Below are positions 10,005 to 53,989 of a stretch of 64,000 nucleotides of DNA, in pieces (the first letter of the stretch is position 1; the number at the start of each line of letters is the position of its first letter). Made by a program: the position numbers and the translations under genes. The DNA is from a virus. The notes beneath the pieces are model-generated. The model ran no database searches and was not told where the DNA came from. It saw nothing but the letters and a program-made list of their open reading frames with translations. The stretch lies in the IMG/VR virus record IMGVR_UViG_3300029566_000004. One strand, given 5' to 3'.

Positions 10005-11045
10005 TCATTTAATACTATAACCAAATTCTTTTGCTCCAAAATAATTTTGCCAATAGATTTCTCGTTCATTTAAAAGTTCTGGAGGACATTCCTCGATTAC
10101 TTCAAACATAAAATTCTCAACACCATCGGCTTGCATAGCTGGATACAACTTATTGCGAGTTTGCGCTTCAGCGCCTAACCCGCGTTTTATGTGCTGGCGC
10201 CAACGGTCGGCAAAACGCACGCATTGACCTACATAGCACATTCCATTTAAAGTATTTGTAATTTTATAAATGCCCCCTACTTTATCACCAATTACACGAC
10301 CAATTAAATCGGTTGTAGGTTTTTCATAGTAACATTTATAAATTAATTTATTGAGAGTTTCTGGATTGTGTAAATACGGAGTGATACTTCGTAATTTTTC
10401 AATCTCCAATAGGTCAGTAGAAGGAATTTGTAACATATAGAAACTTTGCTGTTGCGCGTCAAGCATCATGCGTTTATAAGATTCAATGGCTGCCCGAGTT
10501 TTCTCTTGACATTCATTTAATCTATGGCGCTCTGATATAAATTGTTTGCGTAATTCTTTAATTTCATTTGCAAATTCTTCTTTTACTATTAAAAAATCTG
10601 ACCGATATTTATCAATTTCTTCTTGATAATTTTCGGCTTCTCGTTGAGCACTTTCCTCAAAGGAAGTTTCCATTCGCGCTTTAGCTTTATCATAAATTGC
10701 GCTGACGGCTTCTCTTGCCATTTCTTCAGTTGTTCGTGCATTAAAATCTAATTGACTAATGCGAGCATTAAGTTCAGCTTCTTCTGACTATAAAAAACCA
10801 ATGCTAAGATTAAGTGCATCTTCTCGTTCTTGTAAATCTCGGATAGTATTATTTTCCTGCTCAATGAGTTGAGAAGCTTCAAGCGCCTCAAGGCGCAAAT
10901 TGTCTCTCTATTCTTGTAGAATAGCAATCGACTTCTTCTATCGAATAATTGAGTGCTTTCTACTAAAATAAATATAAAAGTGTGCGCCGATGGAAATCAG
11001 ACTTATTGTTCCAAATATTATTAAAAGTGATAGTTCAATCGGCAT
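10005..11045 (-). CDS. TM + coiled-coil + C-terminal GIY-YIG nuclease-domain protein, three in-frame TAGs
   Basis: ATG 11045 (MPIELSLLIIFGTISLISIG.. is hydrophobic). Three TAGs lie in the heptad-like region. The C-terminus reads GGIYKITNTLNGMCYVGQ..RWRQH..E..W (GIY-YIG). Confidence 0.65.
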
Positions 11046-25480: not shown

Positions 25481-26911
25481 TCACATTTCTGATGCGATAT
25501 CTGCATCGGCAACATCAATTGCCTCTTCAGTTATAATACCAGATAAACACTTAAATGTGAAATTCTTGTGTTTATAGGCAGTAAATGAAGGACGATTTAC
25601 AATACGGACCACTACACCTTCGCGCACATGGGTTTTACCTATTGGGTCTGGACCGTCGCAGTAAGTTTCAGCAGCTTCCATTACCCATTCTCCGGGAGTT
25701 TTAGTAACATAATCAATAATTCCTTCACTATTTAGATATAGAATATTGCGGTCATTACTATCTGGAATGCGGAGCTGCTCAAACACAGGAACAGTTTTAC
25801 AACCCATTTGCTCACAACGATAACGCATATAGTCAGGAGTATATTCTACGACATTGCCATCCTCATTAGTCATAGTCATACGATATACATAGAAATCAGA
25901 CTGAGACACAGGCTCTGGGATGCTAAATACACTGATTTCATCACGATAGAATTTTTTGCGCTGACCAGTTGGCTCACAGCCATATGAGAATACAGTAGTA
26001 GGACCATACTGACGCTCAAATTCTTTATCGTTTAACTTTTTATTACTTACTGATCCCATAATAGGCGCACCAGAAGTAGTAAAACCAACAACTTCGTAGA
26101 ATACTTCTTCACCCTTATGAAGTTTGCCTTCGAAGAACTTTGCGTGTGGCTCACGGAATTCATTAGAGCCATAGAAACCGCCATCGAAATTGTCAAGTAC
26201 AGTACGACGAGTACCAGTTACATAACCCCAATCATAAATTGGCTTGCCGGGACGACGGAATAGTTTGTCCCAAAAAGTGCGCTTCATACCCTTAAACACT
26301 GGCAGATAACCGGTGCGCTGAGAGGTGCCATGCAATTTGAGTGTAATCTCAATCTCGTCACCAGGCTTAAAAGCGTTAAGATTATACGCAAGTTGTTCAG
26401 TATCGGCGTGCTCGTTAAATAAAGGCGCAATAGGTATATTCTTAGGCTTATTCTTACGAGTGCGGTTTGGGCTATTAAATTCATTATGAGCCTTTACCTT
26501 AGGAATATATTTATCACAAATCCCGTGGCCATTAAGCTCATGGATAACAGCGCCTTCAGTTAAGAGAGACATATCTACACCAGTATATGCTACTGAGTCA
26601 AGAGCCATAAAGATACCATCAGAAGGTTCTCCGCGCAAACGAATAGTCTTGATGTTGCGCTTATCAGGCTCAAGATATCCACCAACATTTTTACCAGTTT
26701 CATCCTTGCGACGTACAAGATTATTCTGTGCGCAAAACTCTTCGCTTAACTGAAGCCCAGATGGGAAATAAATACCCATATCACCAAGTTTTACATCCAG
26801 ACCAACGCAAGTTTCACAGTCAAAGAACTTAGCGATTTGTAACTTATTGGCGTTCATATGTGGACGCAACTCTTTTACTTTCACTACATAACCACAGTGA
26901 GTAATACTCAT
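25481..26911 (-). CDS. ATP-dependent RNA ligase (DraRnl/NgrRnl-like: N-terminal OB-like domain + nucleotidyltransferase)
   Basis: Candidate motif I ..ITLKLHGTS.. (KxHG, as I recall for DraRnl KIHG). N-terminus ..GYVVKVKELRPHMNANKLQIAKF... AGGAG RBS. ATGA overlap with the upstream exonuclease gene. Confidence 0.6.
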   Translation of the reverse strand: MSITHCGYVVKVKELRPHMNANKLQIAKFFDCETCVGLDVKLGDMGIYFPSGLQLSEEFCAQNNLVRRKDETGKNVGGYLEPDKRNIKTIRLRGEPSDGIFMALDSVAYTGVDMSLLTEGAVIHELNGHGICDKYIPKVKAHNEFNSPNRTRKNKPKNIPIAPLFNEHADTEQLAYNLNAFKPGDEIEITLKLHGTSQRTGYLPVFKGMKRTFWDKLFRRPGKPIYDWGYVTGTRRTVLDNFDGGFYGSNEFREPHAKFFEGKLHKGEEVFYEVVGFTTSGAPIMGSVSNKKLNDKEFERQYGPTTVFSYGCEPTGQRKKFYRDEISVFSIPEPVSQSDFYVYRMTMTNEDGNVVEYTPDYMRYRCEQMGCKTVPVFEQLRIPDSNDRNILYLNSEGIIDYVTKTPGEWVMEAAETYCDGPDPIGKTHVREGVVVRIVNRPSFTAYKHKNFTFKCLSGIITEEAIDVADADIASEM

Positions 26912-27783
26912 TTTATATCTCCTTTCTGAACAACAGTCCAATTTAAATTTTGATAAGTCAATTTATTCATATCTGACCAAATAATTTTTTTTGCAAGTGC
27001 TTTGTTGTCACGCTTATACTTAGGCATTGTTTTACGAATATGATTACACAGCCAATCACAAGCCTCTGTAAAAGTATTAAAACTATGTTTAAGTGCTTTA
27101 GTATCAGCATCATAAGCATATATGCATTCAGTATTATTGATAATTGCTTTGCGTGCTTTAGGATCAAGGCCCAAACGTGTAACTGCGGGCTTTGTTCCTT
27201 TCGCTACGAGTGCAGATTTATTTATTTCTGTTTTAGGCTCATAGTCCGGGAAAGGATGACCTTTTACCGTACCTCCTTGGTTCACCTCATCAAAAACAAT
27301 TTTGAGAAATTCGGCATCTTCAAGAGCATTATGCGTCTGAACGAATTCCTCTTTTTTATAATAATTTACAACTTTAATAAGAGCAATTTCTTTAATTAAT
27401 CCAAAATGATTTTTAACAGTAGGAGCATAATTCACAAGGTTAGCCGCAATCAAAGAAAGTGACATTTGTGCGGTTATGCTAGTAGCTTTTTTAATTGCTT
27501 TACGCACAAATGTTAAATCTGTATTGCCATAACAGAAAAAGCGGCAAGGTGTGCCATCATTATGTTCTAATACCCAATAGAAAAAATGAGTAAATACATC
27601 ATCTAAACTGGGCGCCGCTTTATTCATTCCATCAGTAATACCAGTTAAATTAGTAATAAAAGAAGTAATTTTCTTATCGGTATAAACCATACTGGAAAAT
27701 TTTGCATCTGTCTCACTAACGCAACCAATTGAAATAATTTCATTGGAAAATTGTGTTGCTTCAAAGTCAATAAAATAATTCAT
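26908..27783 (-). CDS. DEDDh 3'-5' exonuclease-domain protein
   Basis: Exo I ..FIDFEAT.. and Exo III ..HNALEDAEFL... Confidence 0.7.
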   Translation of the reverse strand: MNYFIDFEATQFSNEIISIGCVSETDAKFSSMVYTDKKITSFITNLTGITDGMNKAAPSLDDVFTHFFYWVLEHNDGTPCRFFCYGNTDLTFVRKAIKKATSITAQMSLSLIAANLVNYAPTVKNHFGLIKEIALIKVVNYYKKEEFVQTHNALEDAEFLKIVFDEVNQGGTVKGHPFPDYEPKTEINKSALVAKGTKPAVTRLGLDPKARKAIINNTECIYAYDADTKALKHSFNTFTEACDWLCNHIRKTMPKYKRDNKALAKKIIWSDMNKLTYQNLNWTVVQKGDIK

Positions 27784-27784
27784 T

Positions 27785-28627
27785 TTATACCTCTAAGAAA
27801 CTTTTAAGTTTATTACTTCTTATAGGATTACGCAGTTTAGTCAATGCTCGCTCTTCAATCCGACGAATCCATTCTCGACTATAACCAAGTATTGTACCCA
27901 CTTCTTCAAGCGATCTTTGAGAATGCCCATCTATGCCAAAACGCAATTTAATTACTTCACGCTCTTTTTCAGGAAGGGTATCTAAAACGGTTGAAACCAT
28001 GGTCTTTAATTCAATAGAATAAATAGCATCAATAGGATCAACAGAATTTTCATCTGCAATTAAATCTCCAATGGTTGTTTCATCTTCATCAGTAAGAATA
28101 GTATTAGTTGAAATAGGTTCTATAAAAAACGAAGTAATTTCTTCTACTTCTTTTGAAGTCAATCCCATTGCTTTTGCAATTTGATGCTTGGTTGGCTCAT
28201 GACCAAGAGCTTGACGCAATGCTTCTGTGGTTTTACGAATTTTATTATAAGTCTCTTGAACATTAGCGGGAATGCGTGCAGTGCGATTCTGATTAACAAT
28301 TTCACGTCTAATCGCTTGTTTAATCCAATAAGTAGCATAAGTTGAAAATTTATTCGTAGAAGTCAAATCAAATTTTTCAATTGCTGGAATAAGTCCTATA
28401 CTACCGATAGAAATAAGATCATCATTATCAAGCCCAGAGCATGTATAACGTCCAGCAATAGATTTAACAAGACGCATATTATGCATCATCAATTCATTAC
28501 GTGCTTCAATGTCGCCAGTTTGAGCGCGCTTAAGTAATTCGCGTTCCTCTTCAAATGTTAACAAGTCATAACTGTTCAGTTTAGCACGATAAGCATGTGA
28601 ACTATTGATGTCATTAATTGTACTCAT
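27785..28627 (-). CDS. sigma-70 family RNA polymerase sigma factor
   Basis: Region 2 ..FSTYATYWIKQAIRR.., region 3, and region 4 ..EREVIKLRFGIDG..SLEEVG..SREWIRRIEERALTKLR. Confidence 0.9.
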   Translation of the reverse strand: MSTINDINSSHAYRAKLNSYDLLTFEEERELLKRAQTGDIEARNELMMHNMRLVKSIAGRYTCSGLDNDDLISIGSIGLIPAIEKFDLTSTNKFSTYATYWIKQAIRREIVNQNRTARIPANVQETYNKIRKTTEALRQALGHEPTKHQIAKAMGLTSKEVEEITSFFIEPISTNTILTDEDETTIGDLIADENSVDPIDAIYSIELKTMVSTVLDTLPEKEREVIKLRFGIDGHSQRSLEEVGTILGYSREWIRRIEERALTKLRNPIRSNKLKSFLEV

Positions 28628-38702: not shown

Positions 38703-40232
38703 TTATTTAATTCGTGTATACATTTCTCCGTCGAGAACATCAAGCATAAGCTCAAACGCAGTTTTACCTTTCATAATCTGCTCAAATAGTACAGGACTGA
38801 AGCCGCTAACGAAGGTGATACCATCTTTTACAGTCATAGGAATATTATTCTGACGAGCTTGCACATTCCAAAAGATGAGATTAGGCATCTTTAGACCCCA
38901 TGCACGCCATTTATCAGCAATATGTTCCATGAGAGCACCACTATTATTATCACTCCATAGACGCGCAGCATCAAATTCCATATCTGAGATGATGATTATA
39001 TTCTGAGGAATATCTTCCTTCTTCACATCAGGACGAAGTGCTATTTTAAGAAGAAGATCAAAAGTAGCTTCAATATCAGTGTTTTCACAAAGATTAGTAC
39101 GGTAAATACGTGCAACCTTATCACAGAAGTCAACACCTTCAGTAGCTATCCACTGAGGACGACTAGAGAAGCTAATGTAATGTCCTGCAAAAGGTCCTTT
39201 GTTGTGTTCGGCGCAATAAAGACCAAGAGAAATAGCAACATTAATAGGTGCAGATGCCTCACTGCCCCTCATAGAACCAGAAGTATCAACAACTGCAATG
39301 CCATTAAAGGTTGCGCCTTTAAAGTAATCAGTCAAATTCTCCCAATATTTATTAACTGCCAGACGATTTATATCATCAAGAGCAGGCTCAAAGTCACTAC
39401 CAAAGTCACTACACCAACCTAAACTTTTCCGCATAACATTTGTGGCGGCTGCAACGCATTCATAAGGATGAAGCGCCTTAGCATTAACCTTAGTTTTAGT
39501 ATCCTTCATGAAGTCTTCATAAGTGGTTTTGCCGATTTTCTGACGTTCAATATCGTGACGAGCAAAAGCATTGCGATAAATCATACCGGCGCGAGAAGGA
39601 ATTTTGTCAAATTCAATTTCATTCCAACGTTTTGCAGACATCAGTCTTTCAAGAACACGAATACGTTCACGAAGGCTAGAAAGTGCTTTACGATACTCAC
39701 GAGAAGTAAGATTAAACTTTTGGCGAGTAAGGGTTGCAAGCTGACGGCTCTCATGGCTAGAAGTATTTTCAGATTTAAGCCATTTAGCAAGCAAAGAGGG
39801 GGTCTTGCTCTTAAGATCAAGAACAAGCTGTTGCTTCATCAGGTAGAACATCTTATCCTCAACAGGAGTTCCTACAAGAGCATAAAGATCGTCCCAGCGA
39901 CCATAAAAAGGAATGTTCTCAAGATTACGAATTACATCTTCAGGATGATTTTTTGCAAGCCAGTTAAGGACAACGCGGAAGTAACGACGCTCACCCTGGC
40001 CACCGCGTACGGAGCGCAAATAAAAAAGGCACTTAAGCGCACGAAGCGCATCTTCTTCATAAGCCTTCTTAAAGAGCAGAATGCAATCTGCGTTGGAGCG
40101 GGTACGGTACGCGCCACCGAGTGCAAACATATCAAGTAGACCGCTCATAGTAGACTTGTGAGTCAGAGCACCATTCTCGGTAACAGCATAGTTGTTCGCG
40201 TTATTCATTACGTTCATAAAAGTATTAGCCAT
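38703..40232 (-). CDS. helical N-domain + C-terminal vWA (MIDAS DTSGSM) protein, DUF2828-like; architecture resembles Ro60/TROVE
   Basis: ..TENGALTHKSTMSGLLDMF..YLRSVRGGQGER.. then ..AVVDTSGSM... ..FVSGFSP... Confidence 0.5.
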   Translation of the reverse strand: MANTFMNVMNNANNYAVTENGALTHKSTMSGLLDMFALGGAYRTRSNADCILLFKKAYEEDALRALKCLFYLRSVRGGQGERRYFRVVLNWLAKNHPEDVIRNLENIPFYGRWDDLYALVGTPVEDKMFYLMKQQLVLDLKSKTPSLLAKWLKSENTSSHESRQLATLTRQKFNLTSREYRKALSSLRERIRVLERLMSAKRWNEIEFDKIPSRAGMIYRNAFARHDIERQKIGKTTYEDFMKDTKTKVNAKALHPYECVAAATNVMRKSLGWCSDFGSDFEPALDDINRLAVNKYWENLTDYFKGATFNGIAVVDTSGSMRGSEASAPINVAISLGLYCAEHNKGPFAGHYISFSSRPQWIATEGVDFCDKVARIYRTNLCENTDIEATFDLLLKIALRPDVKKEDIPQNIIIISDMEFDAARLWSDNNSGALMEHIADKWRAWGLKMPNLIFWNVQARQNNIPMTVKDGITFVSGFSPVLFEQIMKGKTAFELMLDVLDGEMYTRIK

Positions 40233-43663: not shown

Positions 43664-43801
43664 AAAAAAAATAAGGTGAAATAGCAGGCACAGGAAAAGT
43701 GGAAGTGAAAACCGTGTCAATAAACTATTTCACCTTAAAAATTACAAGACTCATTAAAAATAATATCCATATTTCTATAAAATTGCTGTTTGAGTCTTAA
43801 T

Positions 43802-43878: not shown

Positions 43879-43952
43879 TGGTGCGGGGCTGCGGATTTGA
43901 ACCGCTTTTTCAGCTTTTTAAAGCTGAGGGTATACCTTTAGCCTAACCCCGC
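43879..43952 (-). tRNA. atypical tRNA-like gene with an 8-nt anticodon loop UUUAAAAA
   Basis: Acceptor GCGGGGT/GCCCCGC, A73, CCA. Perfect 5-bp stem TCAGC/GCTGA encloses 8 nt. The D stem is weak and the variable loop short. Confidence 0.5.
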
Positions 43953-44905: not shown

Positions 44906-45037
44906 AAAGATAAAATCAAACTAGACGCTATAATAATTCACAAAGGATTCTAACCACCAATTAGAAAAAATTAAAAATATTAACATAATTGCTGTAAGCG
45001 TCTTATCTGGTTTTTATTTTCCCTTTTCCGATTAATA

Positions 45038-45126
45038 TGGCTGGGGTGGAGGGATTCGAACCCCCATCTTTCGCCTCAGAAGCCCGGCATTTAGAGTGCC
45101 GTGTGTTGCCATTACACCACACCCCA
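45038..45126 (-). tRNA. amber suppressor tRNA, anticodon CUA (reads UAG)
   Basis: TGGGGTG-TG-GTGT-AATGGCA-ACAC-A-CGGCA-CUCUAAA-TGCCG-[19 nt]-GGGGG-TTCGAAT-CCCTC-CACCCCA-G-CCA. All stems are Watson-Crick apart from one G-U pair in the T stem. Confidence 0.85.
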
Positions 45127-45964: not shown

Positions 45965-46033
45965 TGAAATTTATAGGAATCGAACCTACTCAAACAAGGA
46001 TACAGCCTGTTTTTAAACCATATATAAAATTGC
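45965..46033 (-). pseudogene. degenerate AT-rich tRNA-like sequence (loop CUGUAUC, GUA)
   Basis: GTAGG-TTCGATT-CCTAT T arm, anticodon stem ACAGG/CTTGT, weak acceptor and D stems. Confidence 0.3.
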
Positions 46034-46092: not shown

Positions 46093-46524
46093 ATAAAAAA
46101 TATCTGACATAGGACTTGAGCGCATCTACTCCACAAACACTAACTACTGTTGTCTTGTGCCACCCACCCATACATACATACGTAATGTATTATTACAACA
46201 AAACGCATACAATCCATCGACTTGCTGTATTCCTATGTCAGAATATTTTCCCTTGCCTCTACTGCCATCCAGAAGAGTTGGAGCGTCTAGTTCGCAAGTA
46301 AAACACAACTAATAACAATTAATAAATAAATAAATAAAACCTACAATCTCTTCTCTTATAGGACGACCGATTTATAGTTATCGGCCTAACTCGAGTAGTA
46401 TGTCTTTACGACCAAAGAACCACGCCGCGGACGTAGTCCACTTTTTAAATGATGGACACTTTTAATCCTACATCCTACTCAACAATAGACTTACATATGG
46501 ATTTTGCCATAAAGCTATTGGTAC

Positions 46525-48272: not shown

Positions 48273-48347
48273 ATAAAAGGCAAAAGACGCATAGGGTCTA
48301 CCTTGGTCTTTCGAAACTTTTTCTACACATGGTAGATAAGCAAAACT

Positions 48348-48407
48348 AGACACTTGGATTTTTTCAGAATGTAGCGAAAAAAATTCTAAAATTTGCTGTG
48401 CGTGTCT
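48348..48407 (-). ncRNA. stem-loop element sharing the AGACAC..ACAGCAAAT...A-run-GTGTCT ends with the element at 52118-52234
   Basis: AGACAC (48402-48407 on the RNA strand) pairs with GTGTCT (48348-48353). An internal AGAAT/ATTCT hairpin is present. The 5' segment is nearly identical to that of 52118-52234. Confidence 0.35.
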
Positions 48408-48506
48408 AAATTTGGTGGGAATGCCTTACGAGATATATATTGCAATACGGTTTAACTTTTGCATGCCGTAGCACGTGATACTGACATATAAGTTTCTCTC
48501 GCTCCT

Positions 48507-49333: not shown

Positions 49334-49491
49334 ATTCGTGATTACGCCGCAAGTTCGCGTCACTTGCTTTTACGGAGGGCGTAGGCTCCGCCTCAAATCT
49401 GGTGCTTATGAGGATATCACCCGGACGCCGTAGCGCCACTTTAAAGTTGCCTTAATTTAACGAGCTGGTCGAGCTCTTAAAAACTAGTCCC

Positions 49492-49563
49492 ATTTTAAGA
49501 TTGGAGTCGAACCAATGACCTTCAGTTTTGCAGACTGATGCTCTACCTCTGAGCTACTCTCCC
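49492..49563 (-). pseudogene. tRNA-Cys(GCA)-like with a non-pairing acceptor 3' strand
   Basis: GGGAGAG-TA-GCTCAGAGGTAGAGC-A-TCAGT-CUGCAAA-ACTGA-AGGTC-ATTGG-TTCGACT-CCAAT is followed by CTTAAAA instead of CTCTCCC. Confidence 0.45.
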
Positions 49564-49600
49564 AATATGCGGAAGCAAGATTGCTGTATAGGACTATAAA

Positions 49601-50867: not shown

Positions 50868-51497
50868 TTATTTAGAAAATTTCCAAATATATCCATAAGC
50901 AGTTTTTCGTTTTCCTTTACAAACATCTGAAATATGACTAATTCCGCCTCTAGATGTTGATTCTGGACAAACTGTTTTATAGGCTTCAGATAAAGAAGGA
51001 AAAGTTCTTAAATATTTACCATTTTTATCATATTGATTAATGATACATCCAAATTTTTCTTGATTAATTTTTTCTTGAGATTTTATCTCAATATTATACT
51101 TTTTCAAAATTTGACTTAAATAGTTTCTATCACAATGATATATTTGACTTATTTCTTCTAAGTTAGGATTTTCTTTATAAGCAAAAATTAAAACATCATA
51201 ATCTAAATAGCGTTTTCCATCGCCCCCTAAAGTGGCATTATATCCATTTTTAAAAGAACGATAATGTTCAATCCAGTACTTTTCTCTTTCTTCTGGATTA
51301 TTTGTTTCTTCTATCTGCTCGATATGAAAATGTTCAATTCCATATTTGCGCATCGCCGCATATAGCGGTCTTTTTTCATTTCTATCTCGAAAAGCATCTT
51401 GACAATGTTCTTTAAATCTTTTTTCAATAGAAAATTCTGTTTTGCCAATATAAATTTTCTAATTTATATCATTAACAATTTTATAAATGTATGCCAT
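50868..51497 (-). CDS. free-standing GIY-YIG homing endonuclease, one in-frame TAG (51459-51461)
   Basis: MAYIYKIVNDIN-TAG-KIYIGKTEFSIEKRFKEH...YWI..Y....GYN...GG. AGGAG RBS. Confidence 0.75.
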
Positions 51498-51582
51498 AAT
51501 TAAACAGCTCCTTTTTATTTTTTTGAATTAGTATTAGTTATAACAGAAGAAACCACGTGAAGGTTCTAATTCATTTTCTTCC

Positions 51583-51655
51583 TGGCGCCACGAGGATTCG
51601 AACCCACGATTACCAGATTGAGAAACTGGTTGCCTAGCCATTAGCAGATGGCGTC
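51583..51655 (-). tRNA. tRNA-Glu(CUC)-like, second copy
   Basis: Acceptor GACGCCA/TGGCGCC (A2xC71 mismatch), loop UUCUCAA, imperfect T stem, no CCA. Confidence 0.5.
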
Positions 51656-51762
51656 ATTTTACTAGACCGTTTTTTATCATTTCTAAATCACAAATTTAAT
51701 GATTAAACATTTGCTGTATCGGTCTATAATTTTCATTTCTTTTCTTTTCTTCTTACATATAT

Positions 51763-51791
51763 ATTATAACAAAATTTTTTTAATTTTTCAA
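51763..51791 (-). promoter_or_regulatory. promoter cassette (-35 TTGAAA, -10 TATAAT)
   Basis: Same repeat family. Confidence 0.6.
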
Positions 51792-51813
51792 ATACCCGTT
51801 CTTGAATAGAGTC

Positions 51814-51899
51814 TGGTGCTGGTGAAGAGATTTGAACTCTTACGCTACCATAGCATTACGTTCTAAGCGTAACATGTCTGCCTATTCCATCACACCAGC
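51814..51899 (-). tRNA. tRNA-Leu(UAG), second copy
   Basis: Acceptor GCTGGTG/CACCAGC, A73, loop CUUAGAA, 14-nt variable arm (GCTA/TAGC), CCA. Confidence 0.8.
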
Positions 51900-52091
51900 T
51901 TACTGCTCTATTTTATCTTTAATAACAAGGAATTCATCGACATCTGGATCAACTGCCAAACCACCCCATGTACCATGAAGTTGTCCAATATCATCAATGT
52001 ATTTAATTATGCCTTCTTTATCATGGTAAGGACTATTGATAGGCTCGCCGCACAGGCGTAGAATTTTAATTTTATCGCCGATATGTGCCAT
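51900..52091 (-). CDS. DUF4314-like small protein
   Basis: MAHIGDKIKILRL..GIIKYIDDIGQLHGTWGGLAV... AGGAG RBS. Abuts tRNA-Leu. Confidence 0.5.
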   Translation of the reverse strand: MAHIGDKIKILRLCGEPINSPYHDKEGIIKYIDDIGQLHGTWGGLAVDPDVDEFLVIKDKIEQ

Positions 52092-52117
52092 TAACATACT
52101 CCTTTGATTAAATTTAC

Positions 52118-52234
52118 AAGACACTTTTTTGTTATTATTACTCTGCCAACTGAGCTACCAGTCCAAATGAACTGGATAGGATTCAAACCTGCGGCAACGA
52201 GAAATAATTTAATCTTATTTGCTGTTAGTGTCTT
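52118..52234 (-). ncRNA. circularly permuted tRNA-like element (Y-RNA/YrlA-like candidate)
   Basis: The 8-bp basal stem AAGACACT/AGTGTCTT encloses four parts in order: a hairpin, the T-like arm GCAGG-TTTGAAT-CCTAT, the closed acceptor-like hairpin CCAGTTC-ATTT-GGACTGG, and the D arm TA-GCTC-AGTTGGCA-GAGT. It lies about 12 nt downstream of a promoter cassette's predicted start. Confidence 0.5.
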
Positions 52235-52253
52235 TCCTTTTTCTTACATATAT

Positions 52254-52282
52254 ATTATAACAAAATTTTTAATAAAAATCTA
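52254..52282 (-). promoter_or_regulatory. promoter cassette (-35 TAGATT, -10 TATAAT) driving the permuted tRNA-like element
   Basis: Same repeat family. Confidence 0.55.
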
Positions 52283-52422
52283 ATAAGTAAAATAAAGTGG
52301 GAACTCTTTTTACAAATTTTGCGAACAATAAAAAACAAATAAATCATCAAAAGAAAACCTGTTTTAATTTTTGATAATTTTAATTGCAATTTAATAATAT
52401 CGCCAGTATCATCTGAATAAAG

Positions 52423-52737
52423 TTATAAACCAAGAGCCTTCATTAAATTTTCTACTGTTTGTCGCTCTTCGGGAGTGTATTCAGCAGGTGTAAATTTAGT
52501 AGGGGCTACTTCCTGTAGCGTAGTATCTTCAAAATTGATATTATCTGATTTTCCTACTGCGCCCATGGGAATTTTGGGGCAAGTTAATGAAATCGCAATT
52601 TGAACAGGTGAACCGTCCTTTGTTATATTTATATATAGCTTTTTGTCATAAATTCCGACGGTATCTGTACCAAATTCTTTTGCAATACGTTGAAATACTT
52701 CTTCTTTAGCTGCTATTTCAGCTGCTCGTGTTGCCAT
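52423..52737 (-). CDS. hypothetical protein
   Basis: 104-aa ORF. Confidence 0.5.
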   Translation of the reverse strand: MATRAAEIAAKEEVFQRIAKEFGTDTVGIYDKKLYINITKDGSPVQIAISLTCPKIPMGAVGKSDNINFEDTTLQEVAPTKFTPAEYTPEERQTVENLMKALGL

Positions 52738-52765
52738 ATATTTACTCCTTAAAAATTAAATTAGT

Positions 52766-53989
52766 TTATTCAGATTCATAATAATCGTCTTCAAATTCAT
52801 CAGGAGGGTCAGGGTCAATTATCTCCATGTCAATTGCACAGCTTTTACATAACATACTGTCACTTTCTCCATAGATATAATCCTGCCCGCAATGCATACA
52901 TTTTACATCTGCTCCAATCTCCAATAGAGGTATATTGTCATCATTATGATATACATATCGTGAGCTATACATTGGCTCATAGCGATGAGAAAAAAGTAAA
53001 TCATTAAAATGTAAAGAATTGTCTGGATTAGCATCACGCACCAAAGTACGTAATGGAACTAATTCACTTCCCCTATACCTTTTAATACAATAATATTTTT
53101 CATTTAAAGGCAATATATCATTTTTTGTATGAAATGAAGACACATATGAATCCGTAAAACGTGTCCATGTGTAAGATAAACTAGTTAGTAATTTATCATA
53201 AATTAATTCATCTATATGATTAAGTTCATATGGATACTGACGACCTAAAAAACATACTTGATCAGTAGGATCCATATGTACAAGCATGCGCCATTTCTTA
53301 GAATTCCAACTTATACCATGAGGTAAGAAAGGATATTGTAATTTAGCTTCGCCTTTAATATAACACATAAACGTTACATTATCAGCCATATAACTTAAAT
53401 TACCCGCACGATATTCACCATCAAGAGCATGACATGAACGCCAATTGTAAGTATTTACACTTGACGTTAAAAAATCTAAAGGATGAATTGATATGCAAAA
53501 ATCACCAGACATTTTGTCTTTTTGAATAATTGAACTCGCACACTCTTGCAAATGGCGCAAAACCGTGTTGTCACTAATAAAAAATTTAAATGCTTTTACT
53601 AATTTCATTCCAAGTTTAAAATCGGCGCAGTTAGGCAAAGTAACACAAGAAACAATATTATCAAAAAAACTGTGTTCATTGCTTCGAATAAATTGTTGAA
53701 AATTCATCCATTGCGCATCTGCTAATTTACATTTAGCTATATAAAGAAATTCATTAATTAATAGCTCTTTTTCTTTATCTGAAAGATGAAAGGAAACATG
53801 ACCTAAGTTTTTAATTAAATTAGAACCAAAACGAATTCGAAAACGTTCTTTATTTTTCCACCATTGCTCAAATAGTTCATCACTTACAATTGAATATCCT
53901 TGCGTATATTCTAAAATATGATTAAATTGATCTTGTATTTCAGAAACAGAAGTGCTCATGATCTCTATGGACTCTTGTGTGAACGGCAT
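52766..53989 (-). CDS. hypothetical protein, paralog of 56530..58404 (shared ..C(I/L)SIHPLD(F/Y)(L/M)T.S.N...W.SC.. core, C-terminal CxxC clusters)
   Basis: The motif is read in both ORFs. It is possibly PcfJ-like, but I cannot verify that. Confidence 0.55.
   Translation of the reverse strand: MPFTQESIEIMSTSVSEIQDQFNHILEYTQGYSIVSDELFEQWWKNKERFRIRFGSNLIKNLGHVSFHLSDKEKELLINEFLYIAKCKLADAQWMNFQQFIRSNEHSFFDNIVSCVTLPNCADFKLGMKLVKAFKFFISDNTVLRHLQECASSIIQKDKMSGDFCISIHPLDFLTSSVNTYNWRSCHALDGEYRAGNLSYMADNVTFMCYIKGEAKLQYPFLPHGISWNSKKWRMLVHMDPTDQVCFLGRQYPYELNHIDELIYDKLLTSLSYTWTRFTDSYVSSFHTKNDILPLNEKYYCIKRYRGSELVPLRTLVRDANPDNSLHFNDLLFSHRYEPMYSSRYVYHNDDNIPLLEIGADVKCMHCGQDYIYGESDSMLCKSCAIDMEIIDPDPPDEFEDDYYESE

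What the first reader, a model, noticed from the sequence alone, without database searches (positions are those of the whole stretch)
52118..52234. Circularly permuted tRNA-like RNA closed by an 8-bp stem: a Y-RNA (YrlA)-like candidate
On the transcribed strand the order is: AAGACACT, a hairpin, a T-like arm, CCAGTTC-ATTT-GGACTGG (an acceptor stem closed by a 4-nt loop), a canonical D arm (GCTC-AGTTGGCA-GAGT), an A-run, then AGTGTCTT.

The RNA ends are therefore where the anticodon stem would be. As I recall, bacterial and phage Y RNAs (YrlA) are built this way, with a basal Ro-binding stem plus a tRNA-mimic module.

The element starts about 12 nt after a promoter cassette's predicted start. 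A shorter element at 48348-48407 shares the AGACAC..ACAGCAAAT / A-run-GTGTCT ends.

The window also encodes a helical + vWA protein with Ro60-like architecture (38703-40232) and RNA-repair enzymes. This echoes the bacterial rsr-Y RNA-rtcB operons.
Basis: inference. Interest (0 to 1): 0.75.

Follow-up and report, generated by a model that had tools for sequence, protein, structure and literature searches.

The report
Phage Y-like RNA with tRNA mimic
The flagged 117-base stretch is a real, conserved small RNA that mimics the elbow of a tRNA. It belongs to a widespread and apparently undescribed phage RNA family that always sits beside the gene for a Ro60-like ring protein, so it is most likely that protein's partner RNA.

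Summary
On the minus strand, 52234-52118 folds as an 8-bp terminal stem, a T arm, an acceptor stem closed by a 4-nt loop, and a D arm. In 19 homologues, including two mycobacteriophages, 94.7% of cells pair against 68.6% in shuffles. 21 of 24 pairs change on both sides.

Rfam's YrlA is the only family it resembles. It scores 31.6 bits against a cut-off of 69, and it lacks the canonical GNCGAA Ro-binding motif.

Its ends form a conserved "handle": a 7-8 bp terminal stem, 1-2 nt, then ACAGCAA(W)U, with the 3' strand followed by G. The window holds six such handles. They carry different cargo: a permuted tRNA mimic, a tRNA body with no acceptor stem, or plain hairpins.

The same handle lies next to the DUF2828 gene, on the same strand, in gut phages and in phages of Mycobacterium, Staphylococcus, Listeria, Aeromonas, Salmonella, Vibrio and Fusobacterium.

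The window's DUF2828 protein (38703-40232) is Ro60-like by predicted fold. Its ten best PDB matches are all Ro60.

Best reading: these are Y-RNA-like partners of a divergent Ro60 paralogue. That makes it a new variant of a known kind. Binding and function are inferred, not shown.

The parts
52118..52234 (-). The flagged RNA (class A1): handle plus a circularly permuted tRNA mimic with no anticodon arm, 117 nt
   Evidence: Sequence read. Rfam YrlA 31.6 bits. Covariation on 19 homologues. Family model R1 scores 99.1 bits, but this sequence is in the training set.
52227..52234 (-). Handle 5' strand AAGACACU; pairs with 52118-52125
   Evidence: 8 pairs. 6 of 8 change on both sides; 96% of cells pair.
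52217..52225 (-). Conserved single-stranded motif ACAGCAAAU, the proposed protein-recognition element
   Evidence: One search finds 5 of the 6 window matches on the minus strand inside the tRNA region. The motif is invariant in the 19-sequence alignment. It is also present in phages of Mycobacterium, Staphylococcus, Listeria, Aeromonas, Salmonella, Vibrio and Fusobacterium.
52176..52192 (-). T-arm mimic GCAGG-UUUGAAU-CCUAU
   Evidence: Helix 2: 98.9% of cells pair and 4 of 5 pairs covary. The window copy has one C.A mismatch and U at position 56.
52158..52175 (-). Acceptor-stem mimic closed by a 4-nt loop: CCAGUUC-AUUU-GGACUGG
   Evidence: Helix 3: all 7 pairs change on both sides.
52140..52155 (-). 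D-arm mimic GCUC-AGUUGGCA-GAGU, preceded by UA (equivalent to tRNA U8-A9)
   Evidence: Helix 4: 96% of cells pair. The equivalents of U8, A14 and G18 are invariant, and those of G19 and A21 nearly so (at least 90%).
52118..52125 (-). Handle 3' strand AGUGUCUU, followed by the conserved G at 52117
   Evidence: Logo: G follows the 3' strand in 96% of members.
52247..52263 (-). Recurrent promoter cassette TTGTTATAATATATATG (extended -10 type). The likely transcription start is about 13 nt upstream of the handle.
   Evidence: 11 copies, all on the minus strand, against 1.7 expected. The two-hexamer promoter scan does not call this copy, so promoter function is inferred.
51663..51726 (-). Paralogous handle RNA with hairpin cargo (class C), 64 nt: UAGACCG-AU-ACAGCAAAU...CGGUCUA-G
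   Evidence: R1 scores 31.7 bits from the handle alone.
49485..49596 (-). Paralogous handle RNA whose cargo is a normal-order tRNA body with no acceptor stem (D arm, anticodon arm with GCA, T arm)
   Evidence: Rfam tRNA 55.3 bits over model positions 6-65 only. Handle found, sequence. Homologues L061 and L196 have covarying handles.
48347..48408 (-).
   Evidence: R1 scores 28.9 bits.
44922..45004 (-). Paralogous handle RNA whose cargo keeps a T-loop-like GGUUAGAAUCC
   Evidence: R1 scores 31.1 bits.
43746..43798 (-). Paralogous handle RNA with hairpin cargo, 53 nt. It is the handle nearest the DUF2828 gene: 3.5 kb upstream, same strand.
   Evidence: R1 scores 33.4 bits.
38703..40232 (-). DUF2828 + DUF7788 protein, 509 aa: a Ro60-like ring plus vWA domain by predicted fold. 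Inferred partner of the handle RNAs.
   Evidence: Pfam. phrog_850 'RNA-binding protein', E=1e-122. AF2 model with pLDDT 70.8. The ten best Foldseek PDB matches are all Ro60/TROVE.
25481..26941 (-). RNA ligase. Genomic context only; no direct link to the RNA is shown.
   Evidence: phrog_968, E=4e-63. Weak matches to Pfam RNA_ligase and TIGR02306.

Best explanation
The element is a small non-coding RNA of the Y-RNA kind.

Proposed mechanism:
1. It is probably transcribed from the extended -10 cassette at 52263-52247, as the first part of a longer transcript.
2. Its 5' and 3' ends pair into a 7-8 bp terminal stem. Next to that stem on the 5' strand lies an unpaired ACAGCAAAU, and a G follows the 3' strand.
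3. This "handle" is the part shared by six RNAs in the window and by hundreds in related and unrelated phages. I propose it is the binding site for the phage's DUF2828 protein, a divergent Ro60-like ring. This would parallel the way Ro60/Rsr binds the terminal stem and 5'-strand motif of Y RNAs.
4. The rest of the RNA is an exchangeable cargo. In the flagged copy the cargo is a tRNA-elbow mimic: T arm, closed acceptor stem and D arm, with no anticodon arm. This is the same module as in bacterial YrlA.
5. The cargo would present a tRNA-like surface to tRNA-binding enzymes or defence nucleases. That would tether them to the Ro-like ring, or gate the ring. The purpose would be quality control or repair of phage tRNA, or counter-defence.

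Shown by computation:
- the RNA structure;
- the family;
- its genomic linkage to DUF2828;
- the Ro60-like fold.

Inferred:
- transcription and trimming of the RNA;
- physical binding to DUF2828;
- the downstream effector.
For: Structure:
- All four helices are supported by covariation in 19 homologues. 94.7% of cells pair against 68.6% in shuffles and about 40% in slid controls. 21 of 24 pairs change on both sides.
- The tRNA elbow nucleotides are invariant or nearly so: the equivalents of U8, A14, G18, G19 and the T-loop GUUC..A..C.
- YrlA is the only Rfam family matched.

Handle family:
- 112 unique motif hits were found in the window and related loci, all on the gene strand.
- 102 of the 112 have a paired 3' partner of at least 6 bp. 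In controls the figure is about 10% (shuffled downstream sequence) and 16% (swapped 5' strands).
- The first pair covaries (A-U, U-A); the wider set of handles also shows G-C at this position. Position 4 covaries as A-U, G-C and U-A.

Linkage to DUF2828 in independent lineages, same strand in each:
- Three tandem handles lie directly after the gene in mycobacteriophages Moostard and GuuelaD. The middle one is a YrlA-like mimic scoring 37.9 bits on Rfam YrlA.
- Three lie after the gene in Staphylococcus phage SEP9.
- Five lie directly before it in Aeromonas phage 4_4572.
- Three lie before it in Listeria phage LP-124, and one in Fusobacterium phage FNU2.
- Four lie after it in Felixounavirus Si3. 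One of these is a permuted mimic scoring 51 bits with R1.
- KVP40 also carries handles.

Unbiased IMG/VR pattern sample:
- Of 24 paired matches, 23 lie in loci with tRNAs and 10 have DUF2828 within a locus of about 7.6 kb.
- Of 101 unpaired (chance) matches, the figures are 14 and 5.

Strand bias and negative control:
- DUF2828 loci carry 147 handles on the gene strand and 11 on the other.
- A 50-kb stretch of T4 that includes its tRNA cluster has none on the tRNA strand.

Protein:
- The ten best Foldseek PDB matches are Ro60 from Thermus phage phiLo, Deinococcus, Xenopus and human. E ranges from 1e-6 to 3e-3 over about 530 aligned columns.
- GenBank annotators already call homologues "Ro-like RNA binding protein".

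Literature:
- Bas63 gp130, a Ro60-like protein directly upstream of that phage's tRNAs, counters the ppl defence system. The authors only guessed that Y RNAs might hide among the tRNAs (10.1101/2024.10.10.617714).
- The Ro60 of phage phiLo binds phage-encoded Y-like RNAs and the host PNPase (PMC12135203).
Against: - There are no expression, binding or end-mapping data.
- The canonical Ro-binding motif GNCGAA(N0-1)G is absent.
- The Rfam YrlA score is less than half the gathering cut-off.
- DUF2828 shows no sequence-level match to TROVE or to Ro60 structures. The AF2 model has only moderate confidence: pLDDT 70.8, pTM 0.49, TM about 0.5 and rmsd 9-10 A against Ro60.
- In this window the flagged RNA lies 11.9 kb from the DUF2828 gene and has no terminator. 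It could be merely a 5' leader.
- Within the gut-phage clade, linkage could reflect conserved gene order in the tRNA module.
- In relatives, some handles enclose ordinary-looking tRNAs. That would also fit a processing or stability role.
- The window copy has a weakened T stem and U at position 56.
Confidence: 0.68

Rival explanations
1. The handle is a processing or stability cassette for transcripts of the tRNA cluster. In this reading the leader-trailer stem and the ACAGCAA motif are read by a host or phage ribonuclease, or simply protect RNA ends. DUF2828 would be only a neighbour within the same "tRNA module".
For: - Handles in the window, Si3 and KVP40 are interspersed with tRNAs and lack their own terminators.
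- In relatives, 7-10 handles enclose normal tRNAs that ARAGORN calls with sensible anticodons.
- 23 of 24 true handles in the unbiased sample lie in loci with tRNAs.
Against: - In Moostard, GuuelaD, SEP9, Aeromonas 4_4572, Listeria LP-124 and FNU2, the handles form tandem arrays that abut the DUF2828 gene. They are not interleaved with tRNAs, and the arrays in the two mycobacteriophages and LP-124 end in a terminator.
- The same single-stranded motif is conserved across hosts with different RNase sets.
- Most cargos are plain hairpins with nothing to process.
Confidence: 0.15
2. It is a cis-acting 5' leader: a tRNA-mimic riboregulator that controls the downstream small DUF4314-like ORF (52090-51900) and the tRNA-Leu gene beyond it.
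For: - The element lies between a promoter cassette and a ribosome-binding site plus ATG, with no terminator.
- In KVP40 a handle-like stem overlaps the ribosome-binding site and start codon of the DUF2828 gene itself.
Against: - Homologous class A elements sit in different contexts: before tRNAs, in tandem arrays, or before terminators.
- Six paralogues in the window have different downstream neighbours.
Confidence: 0.07
3. It is a decayed junction of two tandem tRNA genes: the T arm and 3' acceptor strand of one, followed by the 5' acceptor strand and D arm of the next. On this reading it has no function of its own.
For: A tandem-tRNA junction in T4 scores 38.9 bits with the family model R1. 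The spacing between T arm and D arm is similar to that at tight tRNA junctions.
Against: - The two acceptor strands are complementary to each other, and all 7 pairs change on both sides.
- The whole element is closed by the covarying handle.
- The architecture recurs from AT-rich gut phages to GC-rich mycobacteriophages.
Confidence: 0.03
4. It is a genuine permuted or split tRNA. RNase P and 3'-end processing would open the acceptor loop, giving a two-piece tRNA held together by the handle and used in translation.
For: - Relatives of subclass A2 carry complete anticodon arms with canonical loops such as CUGAUAA and CUUAAAA.
- M. smegmatis YrlA is cleaved by RNase P and receives CCA in vitro (section heading in PMC4201824).
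Against: The flagged copy has no anticodon arm, only an A-rich linker, so it cannot decode. The plain-hairpin members cannot be tRNAs.
Confidence: 0.05

Closest known systems
YrlA (Rfam RF02553), the tRNA-like Y RNA of Salmonella, Mycobacterium and TROVE-encoding mycobacteriophages
   Same: - Same module order: terminal stem formed by the 5' and 3' ends, V region, T arm, closed acceptor stem, D arm.
- Same conserved T-loop and D-loop nucleotides.
- Encoded on the same strand as, and near, a Ro-family gene.
- Often accompanied by shorter paralogues, comparable to YrlB.
   Different: - It scores 31.6 bits against a cut-off of 69.
- It has no GNCGAA(N0-1)G motif. The conserved 5'-strand motif is ACAGCAA(W)U instead.
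- It has a single short terminal stem, not the stem - internal loop - stem of YrlA.
- The neighbouring protein is DUF2828/DUF7788, not Pfam TROVE.
Yrl1/Yrl2 with the Ro60 of Thermus phage phiLo (PMC12135203; PDB 9KOP, 9L5Y)
   Same: - Phage-encoded small RNAs sit beside a phage Ro60-like ring protein.
- The phiLo protein is the best structural match to the window's protein.
- A counter-defence role has been proposed, through capture of host PNPase.
   Different: - The phiLo RNAs carry the CGAA motif and are not described as tRNA mimics.
- The phiLo protein is recognisable as Ro60 from its sequence.
Metazoan Y RNAs and Deinococcus Yrn1
   Same: A terminal stem made of the two RNA ends binds Ro60, mainly through the 5' strand. 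A variable module tethers another factor, such as PNPase.
   Different: The sequence motifs differ. Metazoan Y RNAs have no tRNA-like module, and transcription and end formation differ.
Circularly permuted tRNA genes (Cyanidioschyzon merolae) and permuted two-piece tmRNA genes
   Same: In both, the 3' half (T arm and 3' acceptor strand) is encoded upstream of the 5' half (5' acceptor strand and D arm).
   Different: - Those precursors are processed into functional tRNA or tmRNA.
- The flagged RNA has no anticodon arm or tag reading frame.
- ARAGORN, which detects permuted tmRNA, reports none here.
T4 species 1 and species 2 RNAs (rnaC, rnaD)
   Same: They are small stable RNAs of unknown function encoded inside a phage tRNA cluster.
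   Different: They have no ACAGCAA handle, and that stretch of T4 holds no DUF2828 neighbour.

Membership tests
YrlA (Rfam RF02553) | Scores at or above the Rfam gathering cut-off of 69 bits | tested here: not met
   31.6 bits, with E=4.5e-5 on 451 nt and 8.8e-4 on 8.9 kb. Absent from the gathering-threshold scan.
YrlA (Rfam RF02553) | tRNA-like domain in the order V, T arm, closed acceptor stem, D arm, with conserved T-loop and D-loop nucleotides | tested here: met
   The cmscan alignment covers model positions 1-114, and the T, acceptor and D parts align well. Covariation supports all three helices. The equivalents of U8, A14 and G18 and the T-loop bases are invariant; those of G19 and A21 are nearly so.
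YrlA (Rfam RF02553) | GNCGAA(N0-1)G motif near the 5' end, the proposed Rsr-binding site (PMC4201824) | tested here: not met
   The sequence has no such motif. The conserved 5' motif is ACAGCAAWU.
YrlA (Rfam RF02553) | Encoded within about 4 kb of a TROVE-domain Ro60 orthologue, on the same strand | tested here: inconclusive
   - The strand is the same.
- The flagged copy is 11.9 kb from the Ro-like gene. The nearest paralogous handle is 3.5 kb away.
- The protein is Ro60-like by predicted fold, but Pfam TROVE does not match it.
YrlA (Rfam RF02553) | Bound by Rsr/Ro60 in vivo, carries tRNA modifications (pseudouridine 55, dihydrouridine), and is a substrate of RNase P and the CCA-adding enzyme | not testable with these tools
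   Needs immunoprecipitation, modification mapping and enzyme assays.
Y RNA in the broad functional sense | The 5' and 3' ends pair into a terminal stem that carries a conserved protein-binding signature, joined to a variable module | tested here: met
   Handle logo and partner statistics. Covariation in the handle. The cargo varies: permuted mimic, normal tRNA, acceptor-less body, or hairpin.
Y RNA in the broad functional sense | Genes linked to a Ro60-family protein gene across lineages | tested here: met
   Handles abut the DUF2828 gene on the same strand in at least 8 phage lineages. DUF2828 is enriched in the unbiased pattern sample.
Ro60/TROVE protein family (for the proposed partner, 38703-40232) | Sequence match to Pfam TROVE or to solved Ro60 chains | tested here: not met
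   Pfam gives only DUF2828, DUF7788 and a weak VWA_2 match. Single-sequence and profile searches of PDB sequences find no Ro60.
Ro60/TROVE protein family (for the proposed partner, 38703-40232) | HEAT-repeat ring followed by a vWA domain, i.e. the Ro60 fold | tested here: met
   The ten best Foldseek PDB matches to the AF2 model are all Ro60/TROVE: 9kop, 2nvo, 9l5y, 1yvr, 9nfa, 9nep, 2i91 and 9nf8. They align over about 530 columns with TM 0.34-0.5. The model's confidence is only moderate.
Functional tRNA | Open acceptor stem and an anticodon arm | tested here: not met
   ARAGORN and the Rfam tRNA model do not call it. The acceptor stem is closed by AUUU, and an A-rich linker replaces the anticodon arm.

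The most novel reading that the evidence does not exclude
Phages across at least five bacterial phyla, and possibly giant viruses that also carry DUF2828, use a previously undescribed ribonucleoprotein system.

- A divergent Ro60 paralogue (DUF2828/DUF7788, phrog_850; found in at least 705 GenBank phage records) binds a portable RNA handle. The handle is a 7-8 bp terminal stem plus ACAGCAA.
- The handle is fused to interchangeable tRNA-shaped cargos: permuted, acceptor-less, or complete tRNAs with real anticodon loops.
- The RNAs act as adapters or decoys. They would bring tRNA-directed host enzymes or defence nucleases to the ring, or shield and repair phage tRNAs.
- This would explain why the Felixounavirus homologue counters the ppl defence system.
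Probability: 0.5. Interest if true: 0.88.

Novelty: new variant of a known kind. Interest (0 to 1): 0.8.

Why it matters
- Ro60 and its Y RNAs form a conserved RNA-surveillance system that is still poorly understood. The role of the tRNA-like module in bacterial Y RNAs remains an open question.
- DUF2828 proteins are very common in tRNA-rich phages, including Felix O1-like, Listeria P100-like and KVP40-like phages, cluster L mycobacteriophages, and many gut phages. No partner RNA has been described for them in the literature I could search.
- One homologue has a measured anti-defence phenotype.
- A simple sequence signature now points to the candidate RNAs in phages that can be grown and engineered: Bas63/Si3, SEP9, LeBron/Moostard, LP-124 and KVP40. 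This makes the question directly testable.
- The variety of tRNA-shaped cargos on one handle is a natural experiment on what the tRNA mimicry is for.

Tried and rejected
- **Nucleotide search.** A search of 51500-53500 against GenBank phages found nothing.
- **Sequence link to Ro60.** Single-sequence and profile searches of the DUF2828 protein against PDB sequences found no Ro60. Pfam at E up to 10 shows no TROVE match. Only the fold comparison links the two.
- **First motif pattern.** My first handle pattern had one base too many and matched nothing.
- **Degenerate collection scan.** I therefore scanned only the AAGAC....ACAGCAAAT variant.
- **First partner test.** The test used (6 pairs, G-U allowed, 365-nt range) was too permissive; I estimate about one chance match per site. 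I replaced it with scored partners and two controls.
- **Candidate handle at 46240-46105.** It has a 10-bp stem, but I set it aside because its CAGCAA motif reads CAGUAA in close relatives and nothing covaries. A 270-nt "frame" at 46994-46725 is low-complexity noise.
- **RNAfold on the window copy alone.** It does not recover the T and D arms. Relatives L001 and L002 do.
- **Weak hits with model R1.** Hits below about 40 bits include tandem-tRNA junctions, such as one in T4, so I did not count them.
- **RtcB.** None was found among the ORFs scanned.
- **Mobile-element reading (terminal inverted repeats).** I rejected it because of the strand bias (147 against 11), the G.U pairs, and the fact that the stem covaries instead of being conserved in sequence.
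- **Ribozyme families and CRISPR-repeat mimicry.** No ribozyme family turned up in the Rfam scans. CRISPR-repeat mimicry was set aside from my own recollection of repeat sequences, without a test.
Full report
**1. The observation**

I read the minus strand from 52234 to 52118. It runs:

AAGACACU-A-ACAGCAAAU-(24 nt)-GCAGG-UUUGAAU-CCUAU-CCAGUUC-AUUU-GGACUGG-UA-GCUC-AGUUGGCA-GAGU-(14 nt, A-rich)-AGUGUCUU.

- ARAGORN finds 25 tRNAs, all on the minus strand between 43506 and 51899. It does not call this element. The Rfam scan at gathering thresholds finds only tRNAs.
- In a permissive scan, the only family that fits is YrlA (RF02553). It scores 31.6 bits over the whole model, with E=4.5e-5 on 451 nt and 8.8e-4 on 8.9 kb. 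The T arm, closed acceptor stem and D arm align well; the basal stems align poorly.
- RNAfold on the window copy alone gives the terminal stem and the acceptor hairpin, with a z-score of -2.8. The close relatives L001 and L002 fold into the full four-helix shape.
- The cassette TTGTTATAATATATATG occurs 11 times, all on the minus strand, against 1.7 expected. One copy lies at 52263-52247. It has an extended -10 element (TGnTATAAT), which places a likely transcription start about 13 nt upstream of the stem.
- No terminator follows the element. Reading the sequence, the next features are a ribosome-binding site, an ATG at 52090 that opens a small DUF4314-like ORF, and then tRNA-Leu.

**2. It belongs to a family defined by its ends**

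I used the neighbouring 409-aa protein to fetch 43 related viral loci. A sequence search with the element then found homologues that share its ends. The shared signature is:

- 5' W-A-G-R-C-N4-ACAGCAA-W-U;
- 3' N3-G-Y-C-U-W-G.

The window holds six clear copies, all on the minus strand and all in or at the edge of the tRNA cluster:

| Coordinates | Cargo |
|---|---|
| 52234-52118 | permuted tRNA mimic (the flagged element) |
| 51726-51663 | hairpin |
| 49596-49485 | tRNA body with no acceptor stem |
| 45004-44922 | hairpin with a T-loop-like remnant |
| 43798-43746 | hairpin |

Across the window and 123 loci there are 112 unique motif hits, and every one lies on the gene strand. Of these, 102 have a contiguous 3' partner of at least 6 bp. 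In controls the figure is about 10% when the downstream sequence is shuffled and 16% when 5' strands are swapped between sites. The stem covaries, for example GACAC/GUGUC, GACCG/CGGUC, GGCAU/AUGCC and GACGG/CCGUC, and so does the outermost pair (A-U, U-A, G-C).

**3. Covariation of the flagged class**

I aligned 19 full-length homologues with MAFFT, including two from GC-rich mycobacteriophages.

- 94.7% of cells form standard pairs, against 68.6% in shuffles (0 of 500 shuffles reach the observed value) and 34-43% when the partners are slid by 1-3 columns.
- 21 of 24 pairs change on both sides.
- Each helix is supported:

| Helix | Cells paired | Pairs changing on both sides |
|---|---|---|
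| Handle | 96% | 6 of 8 |
| T arm | 98.9% | 4 of 5 |
| Closed acceptor stem | 89% | 7 of 7 |
| D arm | 96% | 4 of 4 |

- The bases that build the tRNA elbow are conserved. The equivalents of U8, A14 and G18 and the T-loop GUU..A..C bases are invariant; those of G19, A21 and the T-loop C after GUU are nearly so (at least 90%).
- A covariance model built from this alignment finds further full-length members that were not in the training set: 94, 91, 83, 80 and 70 bits in other viral contigs, and 51 bits in Salmonella phage Si3.
- The same model also scores a T4 tandem-tRNA junction at 39 bits. This sets the noise level.
- The window copy is slightly weakened. It has a C.A mismatch in the T stem and U instead of C at T-loop position 56.

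**4. The cargo varies while the handle stays**

The 98 unique members I collected first fall into these classes:

- plain hairpins of 53-96 nt;
- permuted mimics like the flagged one;
- permuted mimics that also keep an anticodon arm with a canonical loop (CUGAUAA, CUUAAAA), so the break point lies in the variable region;
- normal-order tRNAs that ARAGORN calls (Arg-CCU, Ile-GAU, Gly-ACC, Leu-CAA, Thr), framed by the handle;
- normal-order tRNA bodies with no acceptor stem, such as window 49596-49485. Rfam matches tRNA model positions 6-65 only, and the handle covaries in homologues L061 and L196.

A portable handle attached to cargo of differing topology argues that the handle is a tag read by some factor. 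It argues against the handle being part of a single fixed fold.

**5. The proposed partner protein**

- The ORF at 38703-40232 (minus strand) matches Pfam DUF2828 + DUF7788 and phrog_850 "RNA-binding protein" (E=1e-122).
- Sequence searches do not reach Ro60 or TROVE.
- I built an AlphaFold2 model from a 38-sequence alignment. Its confidence is moderate: mean pLDDT 70.8 and pTM 0.49.
- The ten best PDB matches to that model are all Ro60/TROVE structures: Thermus phage phiLo 9KOP and 9L5Y, Deinococcus Rsr 2NVO, Xenopus 1YVR and 2I91, and human 9NFA, 9NEP and 9NF8. They align over about 530 columns, with E from 1e-6 to 3e-3 and TM 0.34-0.50. The next matches cover only the vWA domain.
- Homologues occur in 705 GenBank phage records. 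Several are already annotated "Ro-like RNA binding protein". Homologues also occur in giant viruses.

**6. Linkage of handle and protein across unrelated phages**

| Phage | Where the handles lie relative to the DUF2828 gene |
|---|---|
| Gut-phage clade (80 loci) | 99 strict-motif handles, all on the gene strand, nearly all within the 10 kb upstream |
| Mycobacteriophages Moostard and GuuelaD | Three tandem handles directly after the gene, then a terminator. The middle one is a permuted tRNA mimic (Moostard copy: Rfam YrlA 37.9 bits) |
| Staphylococcus phage SEP9 | Three tandem hairpin-type handles directly after the gene |
| Aeromonas phage 4_4572 | Five tandem handles directly before the gene |
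| Listeria phage LP-124 | Three directly before the gene, followed by a terminator |
| Fusobacterium phage FNU2 | One between a promoter and the gene |
| Felixounavirus Si3 | Four within 1.2 kb after the gene, among the tRNAs; one is a permuted mimic |
| KVP40 | Several in the tRNA cluster, plus one stem that overlaps the gene's own ribosome-binding site and start codon |

Across these lineages the stem sequence is free. The constant features are a 7-8 bp terminal stem, 1-2 unpaired bases, (A)CAGCAA, and a G after the 3' strand.

Controls:

- DUF2828 loci carry 147 handles on the gene strand and 11 on the opposite strand in 1.56 Mb.
- A 50-kb stretch of T4 that includes its tRNA cluster and the rnaC and rnaD genes has none on the tRNA strand.
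- I took an unbiased sample of IMG/VR matches to AAGAC....ACAGCAAAT. The 24 matches with a paired partner lie in loci that contain tRNAs in 23 cases and DUF2828 in 10 cases, within loci of about 7.6 kb. For the 101 matches without a partner the figures are 14 and 5.

**7. What is known**

- Chen et al. 2014 (PMC4201824) defined YrlA. It has a tRNA-like domain in the order V, T, AS, D and a GNCGAA(N0-1)G motif near the 5' end. It is encoded within 4 kb of a TROVE gene on the same strand. They searched only genomes annotated as carrying TROVE, which included 22 phages.
- The phiLo study (PMC12135203) showed that a phage Ro60 binds two phage-encoded Y-like RNAs carrying a CGAA motif, and that it assembles with host PNPase.
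- The PhageMaP preprint (10.1101/2024.10.10.617714) found that Bas63 gp130 counters the ppl defence system. gp130 is Ro60-like by structure and lies directly upstream of that phage's tRNAs. The authors speculated that some of those tRNAs might be Y RNAs. That gp130 is a DUF2828 homologue is my inference, based on the identical position of the Si3 gene.
- Searches for DUF2828, for "Ro-like" with phage, and for Ro60 with phage and tRNA-like found no description of these RNAs.
- Rfam 15 has no family for the hairpin-type handles.

**8. Interpretation**

- The flagged element is a structured RNA under selection.
- It works like a Y RNA: a terminal handle joined to an exchangeable module, here the YrlA-type tRNA-elbow mimic. 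It is genomically coupled to a Ro60-like protein in many independent lineages.
- It fails two defining tests for membership of Rfam YrlA, namely the score and the GNCGAA motif. Its protein partner is a different branch of the Ro fold.
- I therefore class it as a new variant of a known kind.

The following steps are inferred and not shown:

- Binding of DUF2828 to the handle.
- The RNA's true ends.
- The role of the tRNA mimic. It could tether tRNA-binding enzymes or defence nucleases to the ring. It could act together with the window's RNA ligase (25481-26941), RNase T-like exonuclease (26908-27783) and phosphoesterases. Or it could serve quality control of the phage's own tRNAs.

The main rival reading is that the handle is a processing or stability cassette of the tRNA module. 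The tandem arrays that abut the DUF2828 gene, with no tRNAs between them, in six lineages make that reading less likely.

Noticed in passing
window 49485-49596 (-): A tRNA body (D arm, anticodon arm with GCA, T arm) with no acceptor stem. Rfam matches tRNA model positions 6-65 only. The body is enclosed by an ACAGCAA handle, and homologues in L061 and L196 carry other anticodon loops (GUU, UAU).
   Followed up: partly
L004:5927-6040, L016:6624-6735, L033:6197-6310, L112:7632-7744, L113:2697-2811: In related phages the same handle frames normal-order tRNAs that ARAGORN calls: Gly-ACC, Arg-CCU, Leu-CAA, Ile-GAU and Thr-UGU. It is unclear whether these mature into working tRNAs.
   Followed up: partly
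L058:2307-2429, L094:325-450, L063:6074-6200, L069:3688-3808: A subclass of permuted tRNA mimics that keeps a full anticodon arm with a canonical loop (CUGAUAA, CUUAAAA). The permutation break lies in the variable region. These could be split tRNAs.
   Followed up: no
window 43879-43952 (-): ARAGORN reports a tRNA with a four-base anticodon (UAAA), i.e. an 8-nt anticodon loop. Rfam tRNA scores it at only 34.5 bits.
   Followed up: no
window 45038-45126 (-): A tRNA with anticodon CUA, i.e. an amber suppressor (ARAGORN labels it tRNA-Pyl). It may point to TAG recoding in this phage.
   Followed up: no
window: 4958, 13697, 25239, 29640, 40304, 44870, 46057, 51756, 52247, 62876, 63934 (all -): A recurrent promoter-like cassette, TTGTTATAATATATATG, occurs 11 times against 1.7 expected. 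It is also shared with related phages. The window encodes its own sigma-70 family protein at 27785-28627.
   Followed up: partly
L126:5018-5569 (Listeria phage LP-124): A sub-threshold ROOL RNA match (87.4 bits; cut-off 99.1) lies inside the tRNA cluster, about 1 kb upstream of the DUF2828 gene. An RtcB-like ligase, an RNA ligase and a phosphoesterase lie downstream.
   Followed up: no
L127:7925-7968 (Vibrio phage KVP40): A handle-like element, ACGACAUU-UU-ACAGCAAUU...AUGUCAG, overlaps the ribosome-binding site and start codon of the DUF2828 gene itself. This could be autoregulation. The stem has only about 5 bp.
   Followed up: no
window 46105-46240 (-): A 136-nt element closed by a 10-bp stem, with ACAGCAAGU next to the stem. 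In close relatives the motif reads ACAGUAAGU and nothing covaries, so it is a doubtful member.
   Followed up: yes
window 50868-51353 (-) and 10005-10721 (-): Homing-endonuclease-like ORFs. One, with a NUMOD1 domain, lies inside the tRNA cluster. The other has a GIY-YIG domain.
   Followed up: no
window 38703-40232 (-); BFVD matches: DUF2828/DUF7788 proteins with the same predicted fold occur in giant viruses: Pithovirus, Marseillevirus, Mimiviridae and CroV. I did not look for handle RNAs there.
   Followed up: no
window 51583-51655 (-) and 45965-46033 (-): Two weak tRNA-like matches that only Rfam calls (38.8 and 29.6 bits); ARAGORN does not. The first starts 8 nt after the handle RNA at 51726-51663.
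   Followed up: no
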